From NCBI GenBank assembly GCA_049999805.1, contig JBNGIO010006382.1, positions 576,171 through 638,584 of the forward strand: DNA of 62,414 bases, written 5' to 3'. Shown piece after piece: positions 1 to 13,058 of this stretch. The notes under the pieces were generated by a model, which did not search any database, had not been told where the DNA came from, and was given only the letters and a program-made list of their open reading frames with translations. The stretch's first letter is position 1; each line of letters starts with the position of its first letter. Source of the stretch: Folioceros fuciformis. Lineage: Eukaryota. A program made the translations under genes and the position numbers.

Positions 1-1317
1 GGTATGGGAATTTCAAACGCCCGTTCCATGTGTCCGTTTCCCTGAATCCAAACAAGGGGAGGCGTCTGGCATGGCATGAGAGATTGGACGCTTGAGCAAC
101 AGCCTTGCGCACACCAACAATGCGTACCTGGCTGCGGGCCTGCTGATACCCGGTGCCGGTGTGTGTTCTGAGGTTCGGGTGTCATTAGATTCCCCACCTG
201 GTTTATCATCCACCTTGCCCGACTGCAGCAGGCGACAAGTGGCTGGCCCTGCTAAACGGATGACGAGCAAGGGGGGCGGAGAGGTGGAATTGAAGCAGAG
301 GCAACGGACCAACCATGTGTCCTGCTTACAGGTTGCCAGAAGATTCAAGCCAGCCGCACCACCGTCCTCTCTGCTCTTTGCTCTCGCTTTTTGCTGCTGC
401 TGCTATTGCCCGGTTTAGTTATCTGTAACCTCGTTTTCTTCTCCCTTCCAATGCTGCTGGCGCTGGCGCTGGCGCTGGTGCCTCGCTTGCCGCTGAAGCT
501 CGGCGAAGGCTGTGGACCCAGGCTGGTCTGGACCGGCNNNNNNNNNNNNNNNNNNNNNNNNNNNNNNNNNNNNNNNNNNNNNNNNNNNNNNNNNNNNNNN
601 NNNNNNNNNNNNNNNNNNNNNNNNNNNNNNNNNNNNNTCTGGACCGGCTTGGTCTGCATCCATAGGTTTTTTTTCTTTTCTTCCCTTGACCCCCTTTCTC
701 GGCAGGTTTTGGTTCATCCCCCCTTTGGTTTCCGACCGCTTTTGATTCGAGCTCCTTTCCCAGCGGGGCGCCGGGTGAATATACTGCGGTGCGGAGTGGG
801 GCAGGGCAGGGCATCCAGCCAGCCCTCGCTTCTCGTACTTCGCTCCGCTCCACTGCTTTCCAGGGTTGCTTTCCGGACCAACTTCCCGCCCTCAGCCTGT
901 ACGCTGCTTGTGTTTTTGAAGTTGCACAAGTTGCAAGGCACGCCACATCACGTCGCATCAACGTGTTGCCGGGTGGAAGGCCAGCCGGTCAGTTGGTGCC
1001 ACTCCCGCTCCTCGCACACCCAACGCCTGTGAAGTCCAATGGCGGGAGCCCGCACTGACCGGGTACCACGAGAAATTCGCGTGCTTCTTCATACTCTCCG
1101 TCCTGCCTCCAATCACTTGCATCACTGCTCCAAAGTCCCAAATGGGCGGGCTGCTGCGAAAGGGCGACAAGCAATCATTTCCTTTCCTTCCATTAAAGAA
1201 TCTCGCAGCTTGCTGCTTCCAACATACAATACTTGTGACAGGGACACAGCCACATCACACTCTCCATACGGTCCTACTCGTGTGTGTATGTCGTCATGCC
1301 CATGTCCTAGGGATACT

Positions 1318-4300
1318 TCATTCTCCTCCTCCTTCATTCCGTCCTTCCTTTCTGAGGATGTCGAAGAACACAGTCGGTTTCTTCCTGGCAGGCAGAAACA
1401 GTTTCTGCAACATTCGTAGCCATGGCAGGTCAGCCCACCCCAGCAGCACAGAGTAGCCCAACCCGAACCCACATTGCGAGGGCGACATGGGCATTGAAGT
1501 ATGTGTCTTACCTCCAGTGCTGAAGCCAAACGGAGCAGCGTTGCTTCGGACCACGGCCGTCCGATCAGCTGAAGGCCAATAGGCAACCCTTGGGCATCGT
1601 AACCCACCTGCAAAACGGGGACACTAATTCAGGAAACAAGCTTACATAAAACTTTAATGGCTGAGATTCAGTGAAGGATCAGGGAAGCTTACATACAGGG
1701 ACACTGATGGCTGGGAGCCCAGTGAAGTTGGGTCCAGGAAGGAAACGCATCAGGCAACCTGCAAAGGTTTCCAACACAGCACAAGCTTCGCTGCAGATGG
1801 CAAACGAAATGAAAGGACACCCCAAAACAGGACGAAGCATGACAAGGGAAGACACGGACCGGTAACCTCGAGGTCCATCTCGCCATTGGATAGAGCGTTT
1901 GTTGGGACAACTGGTGCTGTCATTCTGGACAAGCACATCCGTGTCAGGAACTAGCAGCAAGTAACCAATTTGATCATGTTTCATGACGGCTTCAACATCC
2001 GGTTTCTCTACATAGATGTGCTCGACTAGTCTATATCTAGAGACTGCACGTCGCAATGGGCTTCCTCTCAGCACCTTACCCCGTGGTGGGTGTTACGATT
2101 ACATCTACAGATTTGAATGCCTTCATGTGATGGTACATGACCCTTCGTCTGTAGCGCAGGTTAGTTAGCAGCTGGGGAACGCATATTCAGCTTGAACTCA
2201 TCCTGGATGTCGGAAAAGTGGAGGAAGGAGCTGCGGCATACATCGTTACCTCAGTCGCTGTGCTGCTAGATAATCACGAGAAGTGAATGTTCTGAAGAGT
2301 GCCAAATTCCCTCGCACTTCACAGCACAGCTGTGTCTTGTAGCTGCCAATAAGAGAAGAAGAGGTGAGCCTATGAAACAATCCTCTGGTTGTTCAAACGA
2401 GCTCGAGAAGAGCAGGTGCTTGCCCACTCTCATAGTCCGCATTGAGGGCTGTTGCAAGCTCGGAGCCGAGGGTTGCTAAGTGGCCAATGCGCAATTCATC
2501 CAACTCTGGAAGAAATATCTCCTTGATCTGTACGAGTCAAGTCAAGCACATCAGGAAACCGTTGGTGTGCAGAGTGCACAGCAGCTCAAGCAGCATCGAA
2601 CTTCACCTCGTTCCCATCCGTGCCTACTAACAGCTTGAGAGCATCGTCACATGCTTCTAGAACATCGTTGCTCTTCACATGATTGAACCACTGAACACAT
2701 TGACGACCACAAACGATGCTTTAGGCGTATGAGTTACAAGTGAGTCAAAGTGAAGAGCTGCTCGTGCCTACACACCACAGCCGAAGCTGTAGTGTCTAGC
2801 AGACATGGACTCGGTGGTCCTTACTGCTGAGTATTTGCCTATCCTCAACTTTCCGATGACAGATGAGAAATCTTTGAAATGTTGGGCACCTTCCAACATT
2901 GGGAACGTGTGTGGCACCTTCACAGGAACGGCTCACAGATACGCAAGTTTAGGAATCTCCAAGTGTGCAATCCGCAGGAAGGTGTCTCCCCTGAACCACT
3001 TGAACAGCACAATGAAACTCACCCGAGGGGACACATACACATCTTGAGGGTGACAACCAAGCATTCCTGCATAACTGCTATGGAGCAGATATGAAGCTAC
3101 ATCACAGTCCTGGGATTCACTAGAAGAACGGGAGCAGCATTCACTCATGCACAGATATATTCAAACATAAGTAAACAGCATCTGCTTACACAAGCAATGT
3201 GTCTTCCACAGTTGTTGCAGCTGGGCACACGACCTCCAATGTCCAACTAAGCGAGAGAACCCTGCATTTTAAGAGTCGAGGGCATTGATTAGTTCAGCAG
3301 AGACAATGCCCCGATTAATGAGAAGCAGCATCTTACCCAGCAAGAGTTGTTCGGCCAAACGTTGTTTTGAGACCCACCACCCCACAAAGTGAAGCTGGTA
3401 TACGCATGGAGCCTACAGCATACAAGCAAGCCACTTGGAAGGATATATGTTACAGGATCCTTTTTCACATGACCGCCAATGGATGGGAGAGTTGAAGGTG
3501 ATTAACCTCCACCATCCGTTCCAAGAGCCACAGGGCAGAGCCCGGACGACACAACTCCAATGGACCCTGCAGCTGAACCCCCGCTGTAGCATTGGACATT
3601 ATGAGGATTCCTCACCACCCTGCTCACAAGAAGATCACAAAGAAACGTGTGGCTAGTCACATTTTTCGCAACCAGAAACGCATTCCATGGACACAGACAT
3701 GCTGTATCTGATTGAAATGACCTGTACAAAATCAGATTACGGATGGTGAAGACTCTCACCCATAATGTGGGTTGTTGCCATTGACTCCTACACCAAGCTC
3801 GTTCATATTGGTCTTTCCCACGAAGATCATCCCACATTTTCGCAACTTGCAACACAGACAGCATCCTCTGTAACAGCTCTGACCCTCTGTAGCCATTTGC
3901 TCCCTCCTGTGAGAGGAAGGAAACAAACAAGGTCAGTGGCCGCTGTCGACCTGCTTCCAAGCAAGTCACTGTAGCGTACGAAGTCAGTCCAGTCCAGTCC
4001 AGGCTTGCCTGTGGTTGGATATGGGAGGCAATCAATATCGTCCTTCACGGCAATCAGTACCCCATCCAGTATTGACAAGGGCTTGTCTGTAGACATGTAT
4101 GAGTCGAGCAGGCTGGCAGTCAGCAAGGACACTGTTCCTAGCTTCAAGACTAGTTCAAGGTGCCATTGTTGTGTCACAGAACGCATGCTCTGTCCAACGA
4201 AGGCAGGCTAGCCTGCATCAAAGCTCAACAGGTACCCGCAGCAAAGCGTTCCGATGCCGCTGTGGCTTGTTGCCGAATGTCATACGCATCCGTGTTGATG

Positions 4301-5249
4301 AAGAATGACATAGGCGGGTACCTTGTCTGGGATTTCTCACAGGCTTTGATGAAACGTTCTGCAACCTGCCGACCATGGTGGTCACCACGTTCAAGGGTTG
4401 GCCTAGAGCCCATACCATGCACAAGAAGCGTGTGGCTTGCGCACGGTGGCTTCACCTCAGAGGGGGTGATGCTCTTGGTCCTGTATGCGTCGGCATAATC
4501 TCGAACTTTCCAGTACTTGAAAGGGTACTCGTTCTCCGATGCGACGGGGAGGCACAGCAGAGCTGATGCCACATGGATGGAAGGCTCCCACGTGGGCTGG
4601 CACTGGACTGTACCGTTCTCCGGTGGCACTTCCAGCACTGCATACACAGACGAAATGGAATTGAACGCAGTGATGACAACAGAGTCCAGGACTAGAATTG
4701 AAGTTCTACGTGCAGAATGAGGGCTAGATGGACCCATTCAGGCATAGGGCGAGAATCTAACTAGAACAGCAATTTCAAGAGCAGATCTAACCTTCAGACG
4801 GAAATTCAGGCACAAACATGGGCGCGTCAGGGATGGCTGTATGCGATAGCGTCTGTCCAGCAATGTCAGGAGCGAACGCTACTCCGACATGAGCAAAGTA
4901 GACAAGACGAGGGAGACAACCTGCTGGAACTTGTTTGTATCTTTGATGTGCGACAGCAGCAGACTCCCCAGCAGCCGGCTCTCCACGAGCCATCGAAACA
5001 GTTTGAGGCGGAATCCATGGAGCCTGGGACCTGCATCGGACCGATGGCCCTCTCAAAACTGAGGAAGAAAGCAATGCATCCTTCAGCTAGTTCAAATTCA
5101 ACAGATCCATCCCTGGATACAGAATGTGCTTCCTGCGGAGCATCAGAAGCAGAAAATTTTTGCACCTCACCTCTCAATTCCGTCGGCACATATTCCAAGT
5201 GCCTATCTGCGACTTGCTCCACTAGAAACAGGTGAACCTTGGTCGGCAT
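1318..5249 (-). CDS. FAAH: Fatty acid amide hydrolase (amidase-signature family), multi-exon, with an apparent 1-nt frameshift near 3848 (pseudogene or assembly error)
   Basis: Manually spliced exons are collinear with plant FAAH: MPTKVH...[174 protein letters not shown]. Confidence 0.9.
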
Positions 5250-5843
5250 TTTCGTGGGCTATTCAATGACAAACTATGAAACCAAGGCTCTCAGATCTCG
5301 CTGATCCATTAAGCCACTCCACGAACTGGCACGTCCTCGAGGCAAAGAGCAAGAGTGGATCAACGCCGTCTCAGAACTTGAGGAATTGCAGCGTCCTCGA
5401 GAATTGGCAGGTTCGCAAGAACGAATCCACAGTTGCTGCATGAAGTGCACAGTTGGACTCCGTGATTGATAACATGGCAGCAAAGTAGAAAGAGACTGTT
5501 TACAGATTTCGGAAATTCAAGCTGCCATATGTACATCAAACAGGCAGAAACATCCAAGACCAAGCATCTCCAACGAACACCGGGCCCGGCGACTCAGTAA
5601 CGTGGAGCGGAGAAGCGAAGGCCGTCTTGACAGCGTGCAGCCGTCACCGCCTTCCACTCTCATAGGACATCACGCCACCCACATTCACTCGAAAAGAAGT
5701 CACGCACGCCGGCTCTCCGTTTTGCAGAGAACACATGCACAAGGAGGAAAAGTGGTGCCCCAGTCTAAGATACAAAGGGAAGGTGTGAAGAAGTAACAGT
5801 GTTACGTCGGAAGGATTGTGCTCCGCGGACCACACGATCAAGG

Positions 5844-7870
5844 TTAGCCCAACCGAGTGCTGACCTCCAGCCCGTCCGACACATCGTCTCTATATTCCAG
5901 TGTGGAAGCAAGGTATCGACTTTCATACTTACCACCAGTCTGGACGTAGTCCAGATAGGTCTGCATTTGGGAACTGTACAGACCTGCGAGGAGGAAGCAT
6001 TTCATTGGGTTACTGCTTGCTGGATATGGGTGATGCCGCGATGGTCGCGGCGGGAAGTCAGGCATATAGACTTACCTGCGTTGTCCGCAACGACAAGGGC
6101 ACCTTCCGACAGGTGAGGCTCGGCAGCCTTGAGGTAGTCTATGTACTCAGAGGGCACCGCGTCCAGAAAGAGGAAGTCGATCTTGCCATCGAATTTCTGT
6201 AGCTGCTGCACGGCATCTCCCCACCTCACATCCACCTTCTTGCTCAGCTTTGCTTGGGAGATGAAACTGTTGACAGGGGTCACAAAGTTAGTGGGTGTCG
6301 GAGGAGACTGTTGCTTTCATTCCAGATTGCATTTTGGTCACGAGAAGTATTACCGTTTTGCAACAGCTACCCATTTCAAGTCCTTCTCAAAGGAAACGAT
6401 TTTGGATGACGGTAGTGACGCCTGGGCCATCTTGATTGCGGAGTATCCAGTGAAGGTTCCAACCTACATTTCATGACTTCAAGCAGCACGTTCCGATCAG
6501 CACAAGCAAACGCAGATAGGAAAGTGCAGCATTAGTGCAACACACAGCTTCAAGCCTGAGTGTCTATGCTATCAGCACACAGGAAGTTCTGTATGCCAAG
6601 GTCTCACCTCCACAATCGTTTGGGGTGCCCGCTGTCTGATCAAGTCCTGCAGCAGTGCTCCCTTCTGCAGGGCAACACAACCTCATCAATCCACGCCCTG
6701 AATGAGGAATCTTCTTCATAACCTTGATTTCAACATCAGAGCTTGATCAAACCTTTGGGCCAACTTGAGGGAGACCATCTTGAGCCCCCCATCGATCAAG
6801 CCGCCTGATTATCCACTCGTCGTCCACAGGCTTCAGCCTTGACATTGTTTCACCACTCTCATTCGTGTAGACTTCTCTGGAGGTCATGTGCACGCAATCG
6901 TCACTCACCGGGACACACAGGTGGTCAAAGAGAAACGTTCCATAATTCCCCATTGAAAGCACAAGCTTGTCACACCTGTCACCCCTTTTGATTTGAGCTT
7001 CTCGCACTTTCTTCCTCCTGGTTTTCTGAGCTTCAGCCTACAGCTCACGAACCAAGTCAGAGTCCCTCATTCGTGCCAAGGCATTGCGACACAAAGGTTA
7101 AATATCCCACCAAATCCGACCTGAATTCCTTCCCACACGTAAAGGCTACCGAACCCTATCGCCCCCAGCAGATTGATGGCCACATTACTGGACCCGCCAT
7201 TCGCCGCCTGCATTATACAGCACTCTACAATTCAGCCCAGGTCACTACATTCCGCTACCCAAAAATGGCAGCCAACTAAGATCTTCATTATCCCTCCACA
7301 CCTCAAAGCTCGGGTTGGCCAGAAGCTGAGACACAGAAATGAAGAATCCGACGACGCAGGATGCACCCCCGAAGGCGAATAGTATCCTGCCATTCCCAGT
7401 ACATGAAATCAACCCATCAATCACCTTTGGTCCAAAATCACGCAAAGCCACTGCCCAACAAAGAGCAGCATCGCCCACCTGCGGAGCGGCCTGGGCGCAA
7501 GAAAGTCGATGAAATTCCGCGAATCCTTGAGTTCGTCCTCCATCCTGGTCCGCCTCTCCTTGTCCTCCTGCGACAGGGGACTGAGCCTGCGGCGCCCTGT
7601 AGAGCCCACATTGCTAGACTGCTTGGGCCTGGCCTGCTCCACCTGCTCCTGCTCCGTCCCTCCGCTGGCAGTAAACACAGCGAATTTCCGTCTACCGCTG
7701 CACGGCCATCCCCTCTCTGCAGATCCCCCCGCCCCCAGCCTCCCCCGCCACCCTCTGTGAGGCCCCGCCCACAGGAACGAAGAAGCAGTTTGCGAGTAGG
7801 TGCTGCAGTCCCGGAGCAAGGCCAGCCCCGGCACCGGTGCGGATCTGCAGCCGGAAAGCGTGAGCTCCAT
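5844..7870 (-). CDS. Putative plastid membrane protein: transit peptide + DUF3493/LPA1-like two-TM domain + catechol O-methyltransferase-like SAM/Mg-dependent domain (9 exons)
   Basis: GT-AG exons (approx. 7870-7479, 7386-7302, 7207-7121, 7037-6976, 6876-6753, 6664-6608, 6463-6354, 6266-6076, 5983-5844) join in one frame. TM region: LRRILFAFGGASCVVGFFISVSQLL...NVAINLLGAIGFGSLYVWE. MTase motifs: VGPKKG, IVEVGTFTGYSAIKMA, IDFLFLD, VVADN, LEYRDDVSDGLEVS. Confidence 0.75.
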
Positions 7871-8539
7871 GGCAGAGAGCTAGCTGCGCCTCGTCCACAG
7901 GCCGAAACAGCGAAAATCACTGCGCTATGCGCGAGGAAGGAATCCAGATAGCTTGCCCTGTCTAGCCGCTTCCTCGCTGAGTGGGCTATGCCACTGAGAT
8001 GCGAACACCAATCAACCAAGCAGTGTACAAAGCGCTGGCTCAAATCTGACTTCGCGCATTCTGCACCGTCAACTGAACACAGAAGAATCCTACTTACAAA
8101 ACCAGCACAAACCAAGTGCGGGGGAATATGTTTTGTTTCTTGGACAACATGGTTGGGCCCTTCCTGCTTACTCCAAGCCTAATGGCTCTGGTACACTCAA
8201 GCCAAGCTCCGTTCCTCATTCGTTGCAAATCAAGAGGTCCGATAGGAGGCAATGTCTGGCTGGCATTGGGATCACCTTCTTGATCGCAATACTTGGAGAA
8301 AGTGTTTAGCTTCCAAACAAATCTTTCTCCAAGCAAACTCTGGGCTACGTTTACATGGGAGGTAATTGAGGTCAAATATCTCAAGGGCAGACAGAGTATA
8401 AACCCAATCAGTGAAGGGCCGCAGCCTGCAATCTGTGCCGCTACAAAAATTTCAACTTCCTCCACCACTCGTACCGCAATCCTAGTTTATCCTGACTTCC
8501 AAACTTACATGTCAGCGGAAGAGGAGCCAGAGTAAGCCA

Positions 8540-11026: not shown

Positions 11027-13058
11027 ATGTCGAACACGCTTGAGGACGGGGAGGAGCGGGTGCTTGCCACGGCGCAGCACATTGTGCGCTCGCTCGGCAC
11101 CACCGACACCATGACGGACGACATGTTGCAGATCTTGTCCAAATTCGACGGCAGGTTCACTACCATGAACGGATCCCTGGTGAGCGGACGGAAGCAGGTG
11201 GAGAGCTTGCCACNNNNNNNNNNNNNNNNNNNNNNNNNNNNNNNNNNNNNNNNNNNNNNNNNNNNNNNNNNNNNNNNNNNNNNNNNNNNNNNNNNNNNNN
11301 NNNNNNNNNNNNNCGGCGCGGCAGTCCGTTATCTGGGAGTCCACGGAGGAGGAGATCAGCACGTACTTGCGGGCCGTGGACACTGTGCAGGAGATCTGCA
11401 AGTCCCTGGTGCCCGCAAGTAGCCCGGGTCTGAGCAACCGGGCGCAGAATCTCTTGCAGCAGGCGATGGGGCGGCTGGAGGAGGAGTTCCGGCTGATGCT
11501 GGTGCAGCGGAGCGAGTCCGTATCAGCGGATTGGTTGTTGGACACGCTGTCGGGGTCGTTCACGTCCAATGCGAATGCGGAGGAGGCGTTGGAGGCGGTG
11601 GAGGCGGCCTCGGTGCTGAGCGAGTCCGGGGAGGAGGGGCTGGATGAAGAGGTGCCTGTGGCGGATCCGGTCGGGGACAACCTGCAGCCGGTGCTGTACC
11701 TGCTGCCTCCGGACATTGTGCCGGATCTCCATAAGATCGCGGTGCGCATGGTGAGCAATGGGTTTCAGAGGGAATGCTGCCAGGTGTATGTCACCGTGCG
11801 GAAGACGGTGTTGGAGGAGAGCTTGAATAGGTTGGGAGTAGAGAAGACCAGTATAGATGAGGTGCAGAGGATGATCTGGGAAGTGCTGGAAGCCAAAATC
11901 AAGAAGTGGATCCAGGCCATCAAGGTTGCTGTGAAGGTTTTGTTTGCCAGCGAGCGGCGTCTTTGCGACCAGATTTTCCCGTCTTCTGTGCGGGAGACAT
12001 GTTTTGAGAAGCTGTCCAAGTCTGCAATCAATGATCTGCTGCACTTCAGTGAAGCCATTGCCATTAGTCGGCGGTCCCCGGAGAAGCTGTTCAAGATCCT
12101 GGACATTTACGAAACGCTTAGGGATCTGCTTCCCGATATCGAGACCATCTTCTCGGGTGAGTTATGCAGCAGTGTGAGGTCTGAGGCATCCGGGATTGTG
12201 ATGCGTCTCGGGGAGGCCGCCCGCGGCACGTTTGCAGAATTCGAGAACGCCATTCAAAGGGATACCGCGCGGGCTCCTGTGCCTGGTGGAGCAGTTCATC
12301 CGCTCACTCGGTATGTCATGAACTACATAACATTTCTGTTTGTGTACATGGAGACCTTGGAGCAACTGTTTGGGGACAAGAAGACGGCTCCCCCAGGACT
12401 GCCGGCGGAGGCGGACGGTGTAGACGAGACTGGGATGGGAGCACGTGACCAGTTATCCCCCTTAGCCGCACAGACCATGGTCATCACCCATGTCTTACAG
12501 TCCAACCTGGAGCTCAAGTCGAAGCTTTACAAGGATAACGCCCTGACCTATTTGTTCTTGATGAACAACGTGCACTATATTGTGCAGAAAGTGAGGTGTT
12601 CGGATGAAGTCCGAACACTGTTGGGAGATGATTGGGTTAGGAAGCGCACAGGATTTGTTCGCCAGTGCGCCACTAACTATCAGAGGGCTGCGTGGGGGAA
12701 AGTCTTCAACTGCTTGAAGGATGAGGGCATTCATGGTAGCAGTGGTTCGCTATCAAGTGGCGTGTCCAGGGTGGTGCTCAAGGAGAGGTTCAAGAGCTTT
12801 AATGTTGCCTTCGATGAAATTCACAAGGCCCAATCTACGTGGATAGTTCCTGATCCTCAGCTGAGGGATGAACTGAGGGTTGCCATAGAGGACCGCCTCC
12901 TGCCTGCCTATCGATCATTTCTGGGACGTTATGGGAACTATTTGGACACAGGCAGGCATCCAGACAAGTATATCAAGTACTTGCCGGAGGATCTGGAGCG
13001 GTTGATCAATGACCTGTTTGAGGGACGGGGGACGGGGAGTGCCCGCGTCACCAGATAA
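11027..13058 (+). CDS. EXO70: Exocyst subunit EXO70 (EXO70.2 / B-F-like clade), apparently intronless, spans a 100-N gap
   Basis: N-terminus EDGEERVLATAQHIVRSLG...MLQILSKFDGRF. Core motifs AMGRLEEEFR, PEKLFKILDIYE, VPGGAVHPLTRYVMNY, LFLMNNVHYIVQK, KERFKSFN, WIVPDPQLRDELR, PAYRSFLGRY. Confidence 0.95.

What the first reader, a model, noticed from the sequence alone, without database searches (positions are those of the whole stretch)
5844..7870. LPA1-like (DUF3493) thylakoid anchor fused to a catechol O-methyltransferase domain
Seen: what the ORF track shows as scattered pieces splices into one frame. It gives an S/R-rich N-terminus, then APRPLRRILFAFGGASCVVGFFISVSQLL...NVAINLLGAIGFGSLYVWE...EAQ, a charged helix, and a complete methyltransferase. 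Known: the TM segment follows the pattern of the DUF3493 domain of the PSII assembly factor LPA1 (APFR..R.FF..AF.A.A.I...N.AIN..G......L..WE...E.Q), where it is paired with TPR repeats and not with an enzyme. Inference: this is a thylakoid-anchored O-methyltransferase that could act on a catechol/quinol, pigment or protein near PSII. I do not recall this architecture being characterised. It is my best candidate for an undescribed system here.
Basis: partly seen in the sequence, partly recalled or inferred. Interest (0 to 1): 0.75.

Follow-up and report, generated by a model that had tools for sequence, protein, structure and literature searches.

The report
Membrane-anchored COMT-like methyltransferase gene of green algae/mosses
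This is a real nine-exon nuclear gene for a catechol-O-methyltransferase-like enzyme tethered to a membrane by the same kind of two-helix hairpin found in the photosystem II assembly factor LPA1; the family is conserved in green algae and peat moss, but no study of its function turned up.

Summary
Observation confirmed. On the minus strand, 7870-5844 splices into nine exons with eight GT-AG introns, giving 1248 nt and 415 aa. Intron-less contigs from two public runs, one identical and one about 92% alike, skip all eight introns at the predicted junctions. 22 of the 26 listed coding differences fall on third codon positions.

The protein has a Ser/Arg/Gly-rich presequence, a DUF3493-type hairpin, a conserved basic helix, a short beta-hairpin and a COMT-fold SAM methyltransferase. 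Orthologues with the same layout occur in many chlorophytes (including Chlamydomonas CHLRE_01g040300v5), Chlorokybus, Sphagnum and a chlorarachniophyte. Pfam finds Methyltransf_3 in 39 of 39 and DUF3493 in 35 of 40, with 8 above the curated cut-off. The fold is closest to mammalian COMT. The metal-binding Asp/Asp/Asn and the SAM motifs are kept, but Pro replaces the catalytic Lys.

The architecture is already in databases under automatic names. Nine literature searches found no functional study.

Best reading: a plastid-membrane-tethered, stroma-facing O-methyltransferase with an unknown substrate. This is a new variant of membrane-anchored COMT-type enzymes. Interest is moderate.

The parts
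7871..8052 (-). 5' UTR (minimum extent)
   Evidence: The X2 contig lies unbroken on 7478-8034 and X1 record 2 lies on 7779-8052. An in-frame TAG sits at 7882-7880.
7479..7870 (-). Exon 1, aa 1-130. It encodes a Ser/Arg/Gly-rich presequence (aa 1-70: 9 basic, 3 acidic), a charged linker, a conserved acidic helix, and the Pro-Arg-Pro..Arg-Arg motif that opens the DUF3493-type hairpin.
   Evidence: P126, R127 and R130 are invariant in 44 of 44 family rows. X2 indels in this exon are multiples of 3 nt.
7302..7386 (-). Exon 2, aa 131-159. It encodes the first transmembrane helix of the hairpin and the start of the loop.
   Evidence: Kyte-Doolittle 19-aa mean peaks at 2.06, centred on aa 141. Pfam DUF3493 gives E=0.03 and 14.9 bits on profile 22-44 for this exon alone. 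The junctions are confirmed by contigs.
7121..7207 (-). Exon 3, aa 160-188. It encodes the short uncharged loop and the second, Gly-rich hydrophobic helix, ending in Trp-Glu.
   Evidence: The helix is modelled at high confidence in the orthologue. Junctions are confirmed.
6976..7037 (-). Exon 4, aa 189-208. It encodes the basic juxtamembrane helix (aa 187-215: 9 basic, 5 acidic), which carries family-invariant Arg and Gln positions.
   Evidence: R196 and Q203 at 100%. In the model of P0039 this helix is continuous with TM2 (H181-223). Junctions 7121/7037 and 6976/6876 are confirmed.
6753..6876 (-). Exon 5, aa 209-250. It encodes a family-specific beta-hairpin and the first helices of the methyltransferase domain (conserved Trp/Arg-rich helix and the Gly-Pro-x-Lys-Gly loop).
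   Evidence: (E226-230 and E236-240 in P0039, pLDDT >90).
6608..6664 (-). Exon 6, aa 251-269. It encodes the helix leading into SAM motif I.
6354..6463 (-). Exon 7, aa 270-305. It encodes SAM-binding motif I (Gly..Gly-Tyr-Ser) and the acidic residue at the end of strand 2.
   Evidence: Pfam Methyltransf_3 gives E=2.5e-4 on profile 51-86. G271 and Y276 are at 100% and E295 at 98% in the family.
6076..6266 (-). Exon 8, aa 306-369. It encodes the core of the methyltransferase: the first metal Asp (D341), Pro344 in place of the COMT catalytic Lys, and the Asp-Asn metal pair (D367, N368).
   Evidence: Pfam Methyltransf_3 scores 31.7 bits against a cut-off of 22. See also the alignment to COMT and the contrast table.
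5844..5983 (-). Exon 9, aa 370-415 plus the stop codon. It encodes the C-terminal strands of the COMT fold.
5200..5843 (-). 3' UTR (minimum extent)
   Evidence: X1 contig 1 lies unbroken on 5200-5981 and runs 851 nt further downstream.

Best explanation
Shown: window 7870-5844 (minus strand) is one expressed nine-exon nuclear gene of a green-lineage eukaryote. Its nearest named homologue is from Sphagnum. It encodes a 415-aa fusion protein conserved across green algae.

Inferred, step 1: the Ser/Arg/Gly-rich N-terminus is an organelle (plastid) presequence.

Inferred, step 2: residues about 126-186 form a DUF3493/LPA1-type helical hairpin in a plastid membrane, most likely the thylakoid. Basic residues flank both ends and the loop is uncharged. 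That pattern places both ends, and therefore the enzyme, on the stromal side, where SAM is available.

Inferred, step 3: the second helix continues as a rigid, invariant Arg-rich stalk that holds the catalytic domain close to the membrane surface.

Inferred, step 4: the domain is an active SAM- and divalent-metal-dependent O-methyltransferase of the COMT fold. It would methylate an oxygen of a metal-chelating (catechol-like or vicinal-oxygen) group on a membrane-embedded or membrane-associated substrate. The usual Lys base is replaced by Pro and the pocket-lining residues differ, so the substrate is probably not a classical free catechol. Its identity is unknown.
For: One gene and one mRNA. 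Eight GT-AG introns give one 415-aa frame. Two independent contigs skip all eight introns exactly. 22 of 26 listed coding differences are third-position. The protein aligns to orthologues without gaps at the junctions.

Conserved fusion. One search returned 53 hits and one search returned 25. Full-length members come from Chlamydomonas, Volvox, Gonium, Scenedesmus, Tetradesmus, Chromochloris, Coccomyxa, Botryococcus, Ulva, Ostreobium, Pycnococcus, Chlorokybus, Sphagnum and Amorphochlora. Several are transcriptome-derived ORFs marked complete. The family tree follows green-lineage taxonomy, and the window groups with Sphagnum and P0035 at 95/97 support.

Hairpin. DUF3493 matches 31 of 39 members at E<=0.01. 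It matches 35 of 40 at E<=0.1, with 8 of 40 above the cut-off and the same register throughout. P0067 matches at 32.1 bits over profile 3-79. Among 14 control genomes PF11998 hit only the cyanobacterium. TM1 hydropathy reaches 2.06. Charge counts are 3 basic before the hairpin, 0 basic and 1 acidic in the loop, and 9 basic after it. The AF2 model of the orthologue shows two long helices, the second running into the basic helix.

Enzyme. Methyltransf_3 matches 39 of 39. The best solved relatives are mammalian COMT at E=1.7e-15. Foldseek gives target-normalised TM-score 0.83-0.85 and rmsd 1.5-1.8 A over about 200 columns. The SAM motif residues and D341, D367 and N368 are 95-100% conserved.

Plastid hint. 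All named carriers have green plastids. Two unnamed members, P0058 and P0067, start with a signal-peptide-like hydrophobic stretch ending in Ala-Phe, as in complex-plastid targeting. That rule is recalled, not tested here.
Against: There are no localisation or topology data, and no TargetP or DeepTMHMM run was possible.

The window's own DUF3493 evidence is one 28-aa exon at E=0.03. The nearest orthologue scores 26.2 bits, just under the 27.1-bit cut-off. 5 of 40 members have no DUF3493 match at all.

The second helix is only moderately hydrophobic. No 19-aa window there reaches 1.4. A single-span topology, which would put the enzyme on the lumenal side, is therefore not excluded.

The residue aligned with COMT's catalytic Lys is Pro in 93% of 44 family rows. 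All 14 standalone relatives keep Lys. Catalysis may be altered or lost.

Both runs used as transcript evidence are recorded only as 'RNA? (a guess)'. Their RNA origin is inferred from the exact intron skipping.

The structure model is of the Sphagnum orthologue, not of the window protein.
Confidence: 0.55

Rival explanations
1. The methyltransferase domain is a non-catalytic module, such as a chaperone, scaffold or ligand sensor, tethered to the membrane. Animal transmembrane O-methyltransferase (TOMT/LRTOMT) is reported to act in protein trafficking rather than catalysis; that is recalled, not read here.
For: Pro replaces the Lys aligned with COMT's catalytic base in 93% of 44 family rows. 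14 of 14 standalone relatives keep Lys. The DUF3493 partner LPA1/REP27 is described as a membrane chaperone for D1 (passages of PMC5058467).
Against: SAM-binding motif residues and all three metal ligands are 95-100% conserved across chlorophytes, streptophytes and complex-plastid members. That is hard to explain without SAM and metal binding. SAM binding could still serve sensing rather than catalysis.
Confidence: 0.15
2. The protein is a membrane-anchored methyltransferase of another compartment, such as the plastid envelope, ER or mitochondrion. The resemblance of its hairpin to DUF3493 would then reflect a generic hydrophobic hairpin rather than shared ancestry or function with LPA1.
For: Most DUF3493 matches are below Pfam's cut-off: 32 of 40 members, including the nearest orthologue. 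Only profile positions 16-79 are matched in the green-lineage members. Weak matches to other membrane families appear sporadically, with CHASE8, DUF350 and CbiM each in one member. No hhalign against real LPA1 sequences could be run.
Against: The match is to the same family and the same register in 35 of 40 members, down to E=1.5e-8, and no other membrane family recurs. P0067 matches nearly the whole profile above the cut-off. The family is seen only in plastid-bearing organisms among named hits.
Confidence: 0.2
3. There are two separate genes: a small hairpin protein, and a methyltransferase starting at the ATG at 6953.
For: None was found.
Against: Position 6953 lies in intron 4 (6975-6877), which both contigs remove. 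Single contigs bridge all eight junctions. Orthologues from independent genome annotations and transcriptome ORFs are collinear fusions.
Confidence: 0.01

Closest known systems
Mammalian catechol O-methyltransferase (COMT; membrane-bound form MB-COMT)
   Same: It is the best solved relative by sequence (E=1.7e-15) and by fold (target-normalised TM-score 0.83-0.85, rmsd 1.5-1.8 A, 28-29% identity). The SAM motif, the Asp/Asp-Asn metal site and the C-terminal strands align along the whole domain. The enzyme is likewise tethered to a membrane by an N-terminal hydrophobic segment; that MB-COMT has a single anchor is recalled.
   Different: The anchor here is a two-helix DUF3493-type hairpin plus a conserved basic stalk and a beta-hairpin, not a single signal-anchor. 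The catalytic Lys position is Pro. The aromatic residues that line the COMT pocket are not conserved in the alignment; their role as pocket walls is recalled. The organism and compartment also differ.
LPA1 (Arabidopsis) / REP27 (Chlamydomonas), PSII assembly and repair factors; Pfam PF11998 DUF3493
   Same: The hairpin matches the PF11998 profile in 35 of 40 family members, 8 of them above the cut-off. LPA1/REP27 are thylakoid integral proteins with two transmembrane helices (passages of PMC5058467).
   Different: LPA1/REP27 pair the hairpin with two TPR domains and no enzyme. Here no TPR family is detected, and the hairpin sits N-terminal to a methyltransferase. No evidence was obtained that this protein touches D1 or PSII.
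Standalone COMT-like O-methyltransferases of Nitrososphaerales and other archaea and bacteria (unnamed representatives P0077, P0078, P0086 and others)
   Same: They match the methyltransferase part of the family profile (positions about 145-343) at 150-180 bits. They share the Gly-Pro-x-Lys-Gly loop, the SAM motif, the metal ligands and the C-terminal motif.
   Different: They are about 190-250 aa long and have no hairpin, stalk or beta-hairpin. Lys is kept at the catalytic position in 14 of 14. They are prokaryotic: 45 loci were found, and the top 12 (49-74% identity to P0077) lie in archaeal genomes, ten of them Nitrososphaerales-type, one labelled Thermoproteota and one Bathyarchaeota.
Animal transmembrane O-methyltransferase (TOMT/LRTOMT) and COMTD1
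   Same: They are membrane-anchored COMT-family proteins. One Coccomyxa orthologue is auto-annotated 'probable transmembrane O-methyltransferase homolog at C-terminal half'.
   Different: No direct comparison was made here. The different anchor type and compartment are recalled, not tested.

Membership tests
Pfam PF01596 Methyltransf_3 (COMT / cation-dependent O-methyltransferases) | Profile match above the curated cut-off (22 bits) | tested here: met
   Exon 8 alone scores 31.7 bits and exon 7 scores 20.8 bits. Orthologues match in 39 of 39 cases.
Pfam PF01596 Methyltransf_3 (COMT / cation-dependent O-methyltransferases) | Class I SAM-binding motifs (Gly-rich motif I, acidic residue after strand 2) | tested here: met
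   In 44 family rows including the window model, E269 is at 93%, G271 at 100%, G275 at 95%, Y276 at 100%, S277 at 98% and E295 at 98%.
Pfam PF01596 Methyltransf_3 (COMT / cation-dependent O-methyltransferases) | Divalent-metal ligands Asp / Asp-Asn (COMT D141, D169, N170; numbering recalled) | tested here: met
   D341 is at 100%, D367 at 95% and N368 at 98%. They are aligned to the COMT residues.
Pfam PF01596 Methyltransf_3 (COMT / cation-dependent O-methyltransferases) | Catalytic Lys three residues after the first metal Asp (COMT K144; role recalled) | tested here: not met
   Pro occupies model position 344 in 93% of 44 family rows. Lys occupies it in 14 of 14 standalone relatives. Lys is aligned to Pro.
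Pfam PF01596 Methyltransf_3 (COMT / cation-dependent O-methyltransferases) | COMT-like three-dimensional fold | tested here: met
   The AF2 model of orthologue P0039 has pLDDT >90 over the domain. The top Foldseek hits are all COMT. The window protein itself was not folded.
Pfam PF01596 Methyltransf_3 (COMT / cation-dependent O-methyltransferases) | O-methylation of a catechol substrate | not testable with these tools
   This needs an enzyme assay.
Pfam PF11998 DUF3493 (LPA1/REP27-type hairpin) | Profile match above the curated cut-off (27.1 bits) | tested here: inconclusive
   The window's hairpin is split over exons 1-3, and only exon 2 could be scanned: E=0.03 and 14.9 bits. The nearest orthologue P0039 scores 26.2 bits. 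8 of 40 members are above the cut-off and 35 of 40 match at E<=0.1 in one register.
Pfam PF11998 DUF3493 (LPA1/REP27-type hairpin) | Two transmembrane helices | tested here: inconclusive
   TM1 is clear, with a hydropathy peak of 2.06. The second helix stays below 1.4 on a 19-aa window. AF2 models both as long helices in the orthologue.
LPA1/REP27 proteins proper | TPR repeats N-terminal to the hairpin | tested here: not met
   No TPR family appears in the Pfam scans of the window exons or of the orthologues.
LPA1/REP27 proteins proper | Thylakoid location and interaction with D1 | not testable with these tools
   This is known for LPA1 from passages of PMC5058467. There are no data for this family.

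The most novel reading that the evidence does not exclude
The LPA1-type hairpin delivers a SAM-dependent methyltransferase to the stromal face of thylakoids at sites of PSII biogenesis and repair. There it methylates a PSII-associated cofactor, an oxidised quinone or pigment product, or a protein group. This would be a previously unknown chemical step in photosystem maintenance that algae and some bryophytes keep. No vascular-plant orthologue was seen among the named hits, which would fit loss in seed plants. The loss of the usual Lys base would reflect a substrate that arrives already ionised or metal-activated.
Probability: 0.12. Interest if true: 0.8.

Novelty: new variant of a known kind. 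Interest (0 to 1): 0.5.

Why it matters
No thylakoid- or plastid-membrane-tethered COMT-type methyltransferase turned up in the literature searches made here. The family is conserved across very deep divergences: chlorophytes, streptophyte algae, a moss, and algae with green or complex plastids. It couples a hairpin otherwise known from a PSII assembly factor to an enzyme with an intact SAM and metal site.

It is directly testable, because Chlamydomonas has an orthologue (CHLRE_01g040300v5, P0009). A mutant, a tagged line and a recombinant soluble domain would show whether a methylation step exists at the photosynthetic membrane.

If it turns out to be a housekeeping or detoxifying methyltransferase elsewhere in the cell, the finding is ordinary.

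Tried and rejected
Pfam scan of exons, first attempt. One exon was 19 aa, below the minimum, so the scan was repeated without it.

Sequencing runs. No RNA holder is on record as RNA; the four runs are 'RNA? (a guess)'. Runs X3 and X4 laid nothing.

Own genome. None is held, so PF11998 and paralogues could not be sought in it.

ESM Atlas look-up of the hairpin and stalk region of P0039. No usable hit.

Earlier findings of this scan, by place, words and sequence. Nothing was returned.

Cluster members, to name the unnamed relatives P0035, P0062, P0063, P0067, P0058, P0077 and others. The query was not made because the database was switched off, so these remain unnamed.

The search for related loci with the 14-sequence alignment A2. 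It had no conserved stretch to search with, so the single protein P0077 was used instead.

PF11998 in the archaeal genome G001. No match, as expected. The control hit was in Synechococcus elongatus only. No locus was returned for the control, so no real DUF3493/LPA1 sequences were available for a profile-profile test of the hairpin.

Dewez et al. 2009 on REP27 domains (PMC2736001). Not held.

P0032, P0051, P0052 and P0054 first looked like split or enzyme-less forms. They read as gene models with intron read-through: family motifs interrupted by unrelated stretches. They were rejected as separate architectures.

Substrates considered but without any supporting evidence: plastoquinone or tocopherol intermediates (known methylations are C-methylations by other families; recalled), chlorophyll intermediates, and tRNA 5-hydroxyuridine (TrmR is a structural neighbour at rank 40). 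None could be tested.
Full report
1. THE OBSERVATION

The stop-to-stop ORF list for 5400-8400 shows only short pieces on the minus strand. I read the reverse complement and located the exon ends. This gives nine exons: 7870-7479, 7386-7302, 7207-7121, 7037-6976, 6876-6753, 6664-6608, 6463-6354, 6266-6076 and 5983-5844. Every intron begins GT and ends AG. The joined CDS is 1248 nt and encodes 415 aa plus a stop. An in-frame TAG lies four codons upstream of the ATG at 7870.

Independent support comes from public assemblies. A search for runs holding 5844-7870 found run X1 with 46% of the sampled words and run X2 with 5%. I laid their contigs on 5200-8400.
- One X1 contig (2599 nt, no differences) skips all eight introns.
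- One X2 contig (2984 nt, a diverged relative) also skips all eight introns.
- The joints fit the predicted junctions once the stated cut offsets are allowed for: 5983/6076, 6266/6354, 6463/6608, 6664/6753, 6876/6976, 7037/7121, 7207/7302 and 7386/7479. All have CT..AC ends on the + strand.
- The X2 contig covers 7478-8034 without a break, so the ATG exon has no further upstream intron within that span.
- X2's three indels in exon 1 are 12, 3 and 6 nt long.

Of the 40 listed single-base differences (58 more were not shown), 26 fall in the CDS: 22 at codon position 3, 3 at position 1 and 1 at position 2.

Both runs are recorded only as 'RNA? (a guess)'. I infer that they are cDNA-derived from the exact intron removal. 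The alternative start at 6953 lies inside intron 4.

2. WHAT THE PROTEIN IS

Exon-by-exon Pfam scanning gave these results:
- Exon 8: Methyltransf_3 at 31.7 bits (cut-off 22).
- Exon 7: Methyltransf_3 at 20.8 bits.
- Exon 2 (28 aa): DUF3493 at E=0.03 and 14.9 bits, on profile positions 22-44.
- The other five exons scanned gave nothing, and one exon was too short to scan.

Because a spliced product cannot be handed to the remote tools, I worked through orthologues. Exon 8 found Botryococcus braunii P0002, 422 aa. P0002 found 53 proteins, and Sphagnum fallax P0039 found 25.

A local BLASTP of the spliced model against the 54 proteins then held gave the best matches:
- P0039: 59% identity over 359 aa, covering model residues 60-415.
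- P0035 (unnamed): 61% over 349 aa.
- Chlorophyte proteins: 45-53%.

A 13-row alignment shows no gaps at any exon junction.

Named carriers include:
- Volvocine algae: Chlamydomonas reinhardtii (CHLRE_01g040300v5), C. incerta, C. schloesseri, Gonium, Pleodorina and Volvox.
- Other chlorophyceans: Scenedesmus, Tetradesmus, Chromochloris and Raphidocelis.
- Trebouxiophytes: Coccomyxa, Botryococcus and Myrmecia.
- Others: Ulva, Ostreobium, Pycnococcus, Sanguina, Chlorokybus, a Spirogloea fragment and two Sphagnum species.
- The chlorarachniophyte Amorphochlora.

No vascular-plant name appeared in either hit list. Each search scored only the 7,999 candidates sharing most words, so this is 'not seen', not 'absent'.

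A maximum-likelihood tree of the model plus 35 of the 60 proteins then held (fragments, misjoined models and some further unnamed members were left out) follows green-lineage taxonomy. It puts the window with P0035 and Sphagnum at 95/97 support.

3. DOMAIN ANATOMY

Residues 1-70 hold 9 basic, 3 acidic and 13 Ser/Thr residues. This looks like a presequence, but no predictor was available.

A conserved acidic helix precedes an invariant Pro-Arg-Pro..Arg motif; P126, R127 and R130 are present in 44 of 44 rows.

The first hydrophobic helix peaks at a Kyte-Doolittle mean of 2.06. The 14-residue loop has no basic residue. The second, Gly-rich helix is only moderately hydrophobic, with no 19-aa window reaching 1.4. 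The following 29 residues hold 9 basic residues.

Pfam DUF3493 results across the family:
- 31 of 39 aligned members match at E<=0.01, with a best E of 1.5e-8.
- In a per-protein scan, 35 of 40 match at E<=0.1, always on profile 16-78/79 and always directly upstream of the enzyme.
- 8 of 40 exceed the 27.1-bit cut-off: P0003, P0008, P0015, P0024, P0028, P0029, P0033 and P0040.
- 5 of 40 have no match: P0030, P0041, P0043, P0044 and P0046.
- The unnamed member P0067 matches profile 3-79 at 32.1 bits.
- Among 14 control genomes, PF11998 hit only Synechococcus elongatus.

An AlphaFold2 model of P0039, built with the 39-row alignment, has mean pLDDT 81 and is above 90 from about residue 140. It shows:
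- helix 144-171;
- a second helix, 181-223, that runs straight from the membrane segment into the basic stretch;
- a beta-hairpin at 226-240;
- the methyltransferase.

The basic helix and the hairpin carry family-invariant residues. R196, Q203 and R209 are at 100%, and G207 and D208 are at 91-95%. This region is therefore more than a spacer.

4. THE ENZYME DOMAIN

Methyltransf_3 matches 39 of 39 members.

Against solved structures, the best relatives of P0002 are mammalian COMT, with 4p7f at E=1.7e-15 aligned along the whole domain. Foldseek with the P0039 model puts rat and human COMT first. The target-normalised TM-score is 0.83-0.85 and the rmsd 1.5-1.8 A over about 200 columns, at 28-29% identity. 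Bacterial catechol O-methyltransferases and TrmR rank lower.

SAM-motif residues and the residues aligned with COMT's metal ligands are 93-100% conserved. The metal ligands are model D341, D367 and N368. COMT numbering and residue roles are recalled.

The residue aligned with COMT's Lys, three positions after the first Asp, is Pro in 93% of 44 family rows. For that count I dropped P0044 from A1 and added P0055, P0056, P0062, P0063 and P0067.

A profile search of 1.84 billion representatives found 10,467 proteins at E<=0.001 and 112 at E<=1e-30. Beyond the fusion family, the best hits are standalone enzymes of about 190-250 aa that match only profile positions about 145-343. In an alignment of 14 of them, the Lys is invariant. 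The genomic relatives of one of them (P0077) lie mainly in Nitrososphaerales archaea.

The fusion family is therefore a COMT-fold enzyme with an intact cofactor and metal site and a changed catalytic loop.

5. MECHANISM

Shown: one gene, one spliced mRNA, a conserved hairpin-stalk-enzyme fusion, a COMT fold, conserved SAM and metal residues, and Lys replaced by Pro.

Inferred:
- The presequence targets the plastid. All named carriers are plastid-bearing. Two unnamed members begin with a signal-peptide-like stretch ending in Ala-Phe, which I recall as typical of complex-plastid import.
- By the positive-inside rule, both hairpin ends and the enzyme face the stroma.
- The continuous TM2-stalk helix holds the active site near the membrane surface.
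- The enzyme methylates a metal-chelated oxygen on a membrane-associated substrate.

I put 0.55 on this overall reading. The substrate is unknown. A link to PSII rests only on the shared hairpin with LPA1/REP27. These are described as thylakoid proteins with two transmembrane helices and two TPR domains, and LPA1 binds D1 in split-ubiquitin assays (passages read in PMC5058467, and PMC10975043).

6. RIVALS
- A non-catalytic role is suggested by the lost Lys. The strict conservation of SAM and metal residues argues against it (0.15).
- Another membrane, or a merely generic hairpin, remains possible. Most DUF3493 scores are sub-threshold and no LPA1 sequences were available for a profile-profile test. 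Against this stands the consistent register in 35 of 40 members (0.2).
- Two genes: contradicted (0.01).
- A single-span topology with a lumenal enzyme is not excluded by the hydropathy result.

7. COMPARISON WITH THE KNOWN, AND NOVELTY

The protein is a member of the Methyltransf_3/COMT superfamily by profile, motifs and fold, but it fails the catalytic-Lys feature. It shares the DUF3493 hairpin with LPA1/REP27 but lacks their TPR repeats, so it is not an LPA1 orthologue.

The architecture is already visible in databases. Orthologues carry precomputed PF11998+PF01596 labels and automatic names such as 'catechol O-methyltransferase', 'S-adenosyl-L-methionine-dependent methyltransferase' and 'probable transmembrane O-methyltransferase homolog at C-terminal half'.

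Full-text searches of about 8.4 million papers and preprints gave the following:
- 'DUF3493' + 'methyltransferase': 1 paper, on a dinoflagellate genome.
- 'Cre01.g040300': 0.
- 'DUF3493': 4, none about this protein by title or abstract.
- 'catechol O-methyltransferase' + 'thylakoid': 10, none relevant by title or abstract.
- 'REP27' or 'LPA1': 2,587 papers, of which 12 were listed, used only for background on LPA1/REP27; the passages read do not mention this fusion.
- 'catechol O-methyltransferase' + 'Chlamydomonas' + 'chloroplast': 1, irrelevant.
- 'PF11998', 'IPR021883' or 'LPA1-like': 1, on barley.
- 'transmembrane O-methyltransferase' + 'chloroplast': 0.
- 'O-methyltransferase' + 'thylakoid membrane' + 'Chlamydomonas' + 'uncharacterized': 10, none relevant by title or abstract.

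For these I saw search listings only. Supplementary tables were not searched and could hold proteomic, localisation or mutant data for the Chlamydomonas gene.

I rate it a new variant of a known kind, namely membrane-anchored COMT-type methyltransferases. Interest is 0.5: a well-founded, conserved, testable lead, not a surprise in kind.

8. SURROUNDINGS

Downstream on the same strand, about 1100-4050, lie exons of an amidase gene. Pfam Amidase gives E=1.4e-7 for 3502-4044 and E=1.9e-4 for 1122-1628.

Upstream on the + strand, 11316-13058 encodes an Exo70 exocyst subunit, with Exo70_C at E=1.7e-135.

These are unrelated eukaryotic neighbours, and no operon logic applies. The window holds 720 N.

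Noticed in passing
window 1122-4044, minus strand: Exons of an amidase-family gene lie directly downstream of the methyltransferase gene on the same strand. Pfam Amidase gives E=1.4e-7 for 3502-4044 and E=1.9e-4 for 1122-1628. The X1 contig that carries the spliced methyltransferase mRNA runs 851 nt beyond 5200 toward this gene. This means either a very long 3' UTR or an assembly or read-through join of tandem transcripts.
   Followed up: partly
window 11316-13058, plus strand: A single long open frame encodes an Exo70 exocyst subunit. Exo70_C scores 452 bits and Exo70_N 43.7 bits. An N-gap lies just upstream, at about 11200-11310.
   Followed up: partly
window 8161-8400: A separate X1 contig (828 nt, depth 88.7) covers this stretch upstream of the gene's 5' UTR. 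The 130-aa frame at 8094-8486 (minus strand) has no Pfam match. It may be an unannotated neighbouring transcript.
   Followed up: no
L001-L012 (archaeal genome contigs): The closest standalone relatives of the methyltransferase domain (about 190-250 aa, catalytic Lys kept) are mostly encoded by Nitrososphaerales-type archaeal MAGs: ten of the top twelve, plus one labelled Thermoproteota and one Bathyarchaeota, at 49-74% identity to P0077. Their gene neighbourhoods, which might hint at a substrate, were not examined.
   Followed up: no
P0058, P0063, P0067 (unnamed proteins): These are divergent members of the fusion family. Two of them have N-termini that look like a signal peptide ending in Ala-Phe. 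P0067 matches almost the whole DUF3493 profile above the cut-off. This suggests the fusion also exists in algae with complex plastids. The source organisms could not be named because one search did not complete.
   Followed up: partly
P0071, P0121, P0128, P0143, P0176, P0179, P0189, P0192 (unnamed proteins): Other architectures occur among close methyltransferase relatives. Seven are tandem double Methyltransf_3 proteins, and one (P0192) is a fusion to an endonuclease/exonuclease/phosphatase domain. None has a DUF3493 hairpin.
   Followed up: no
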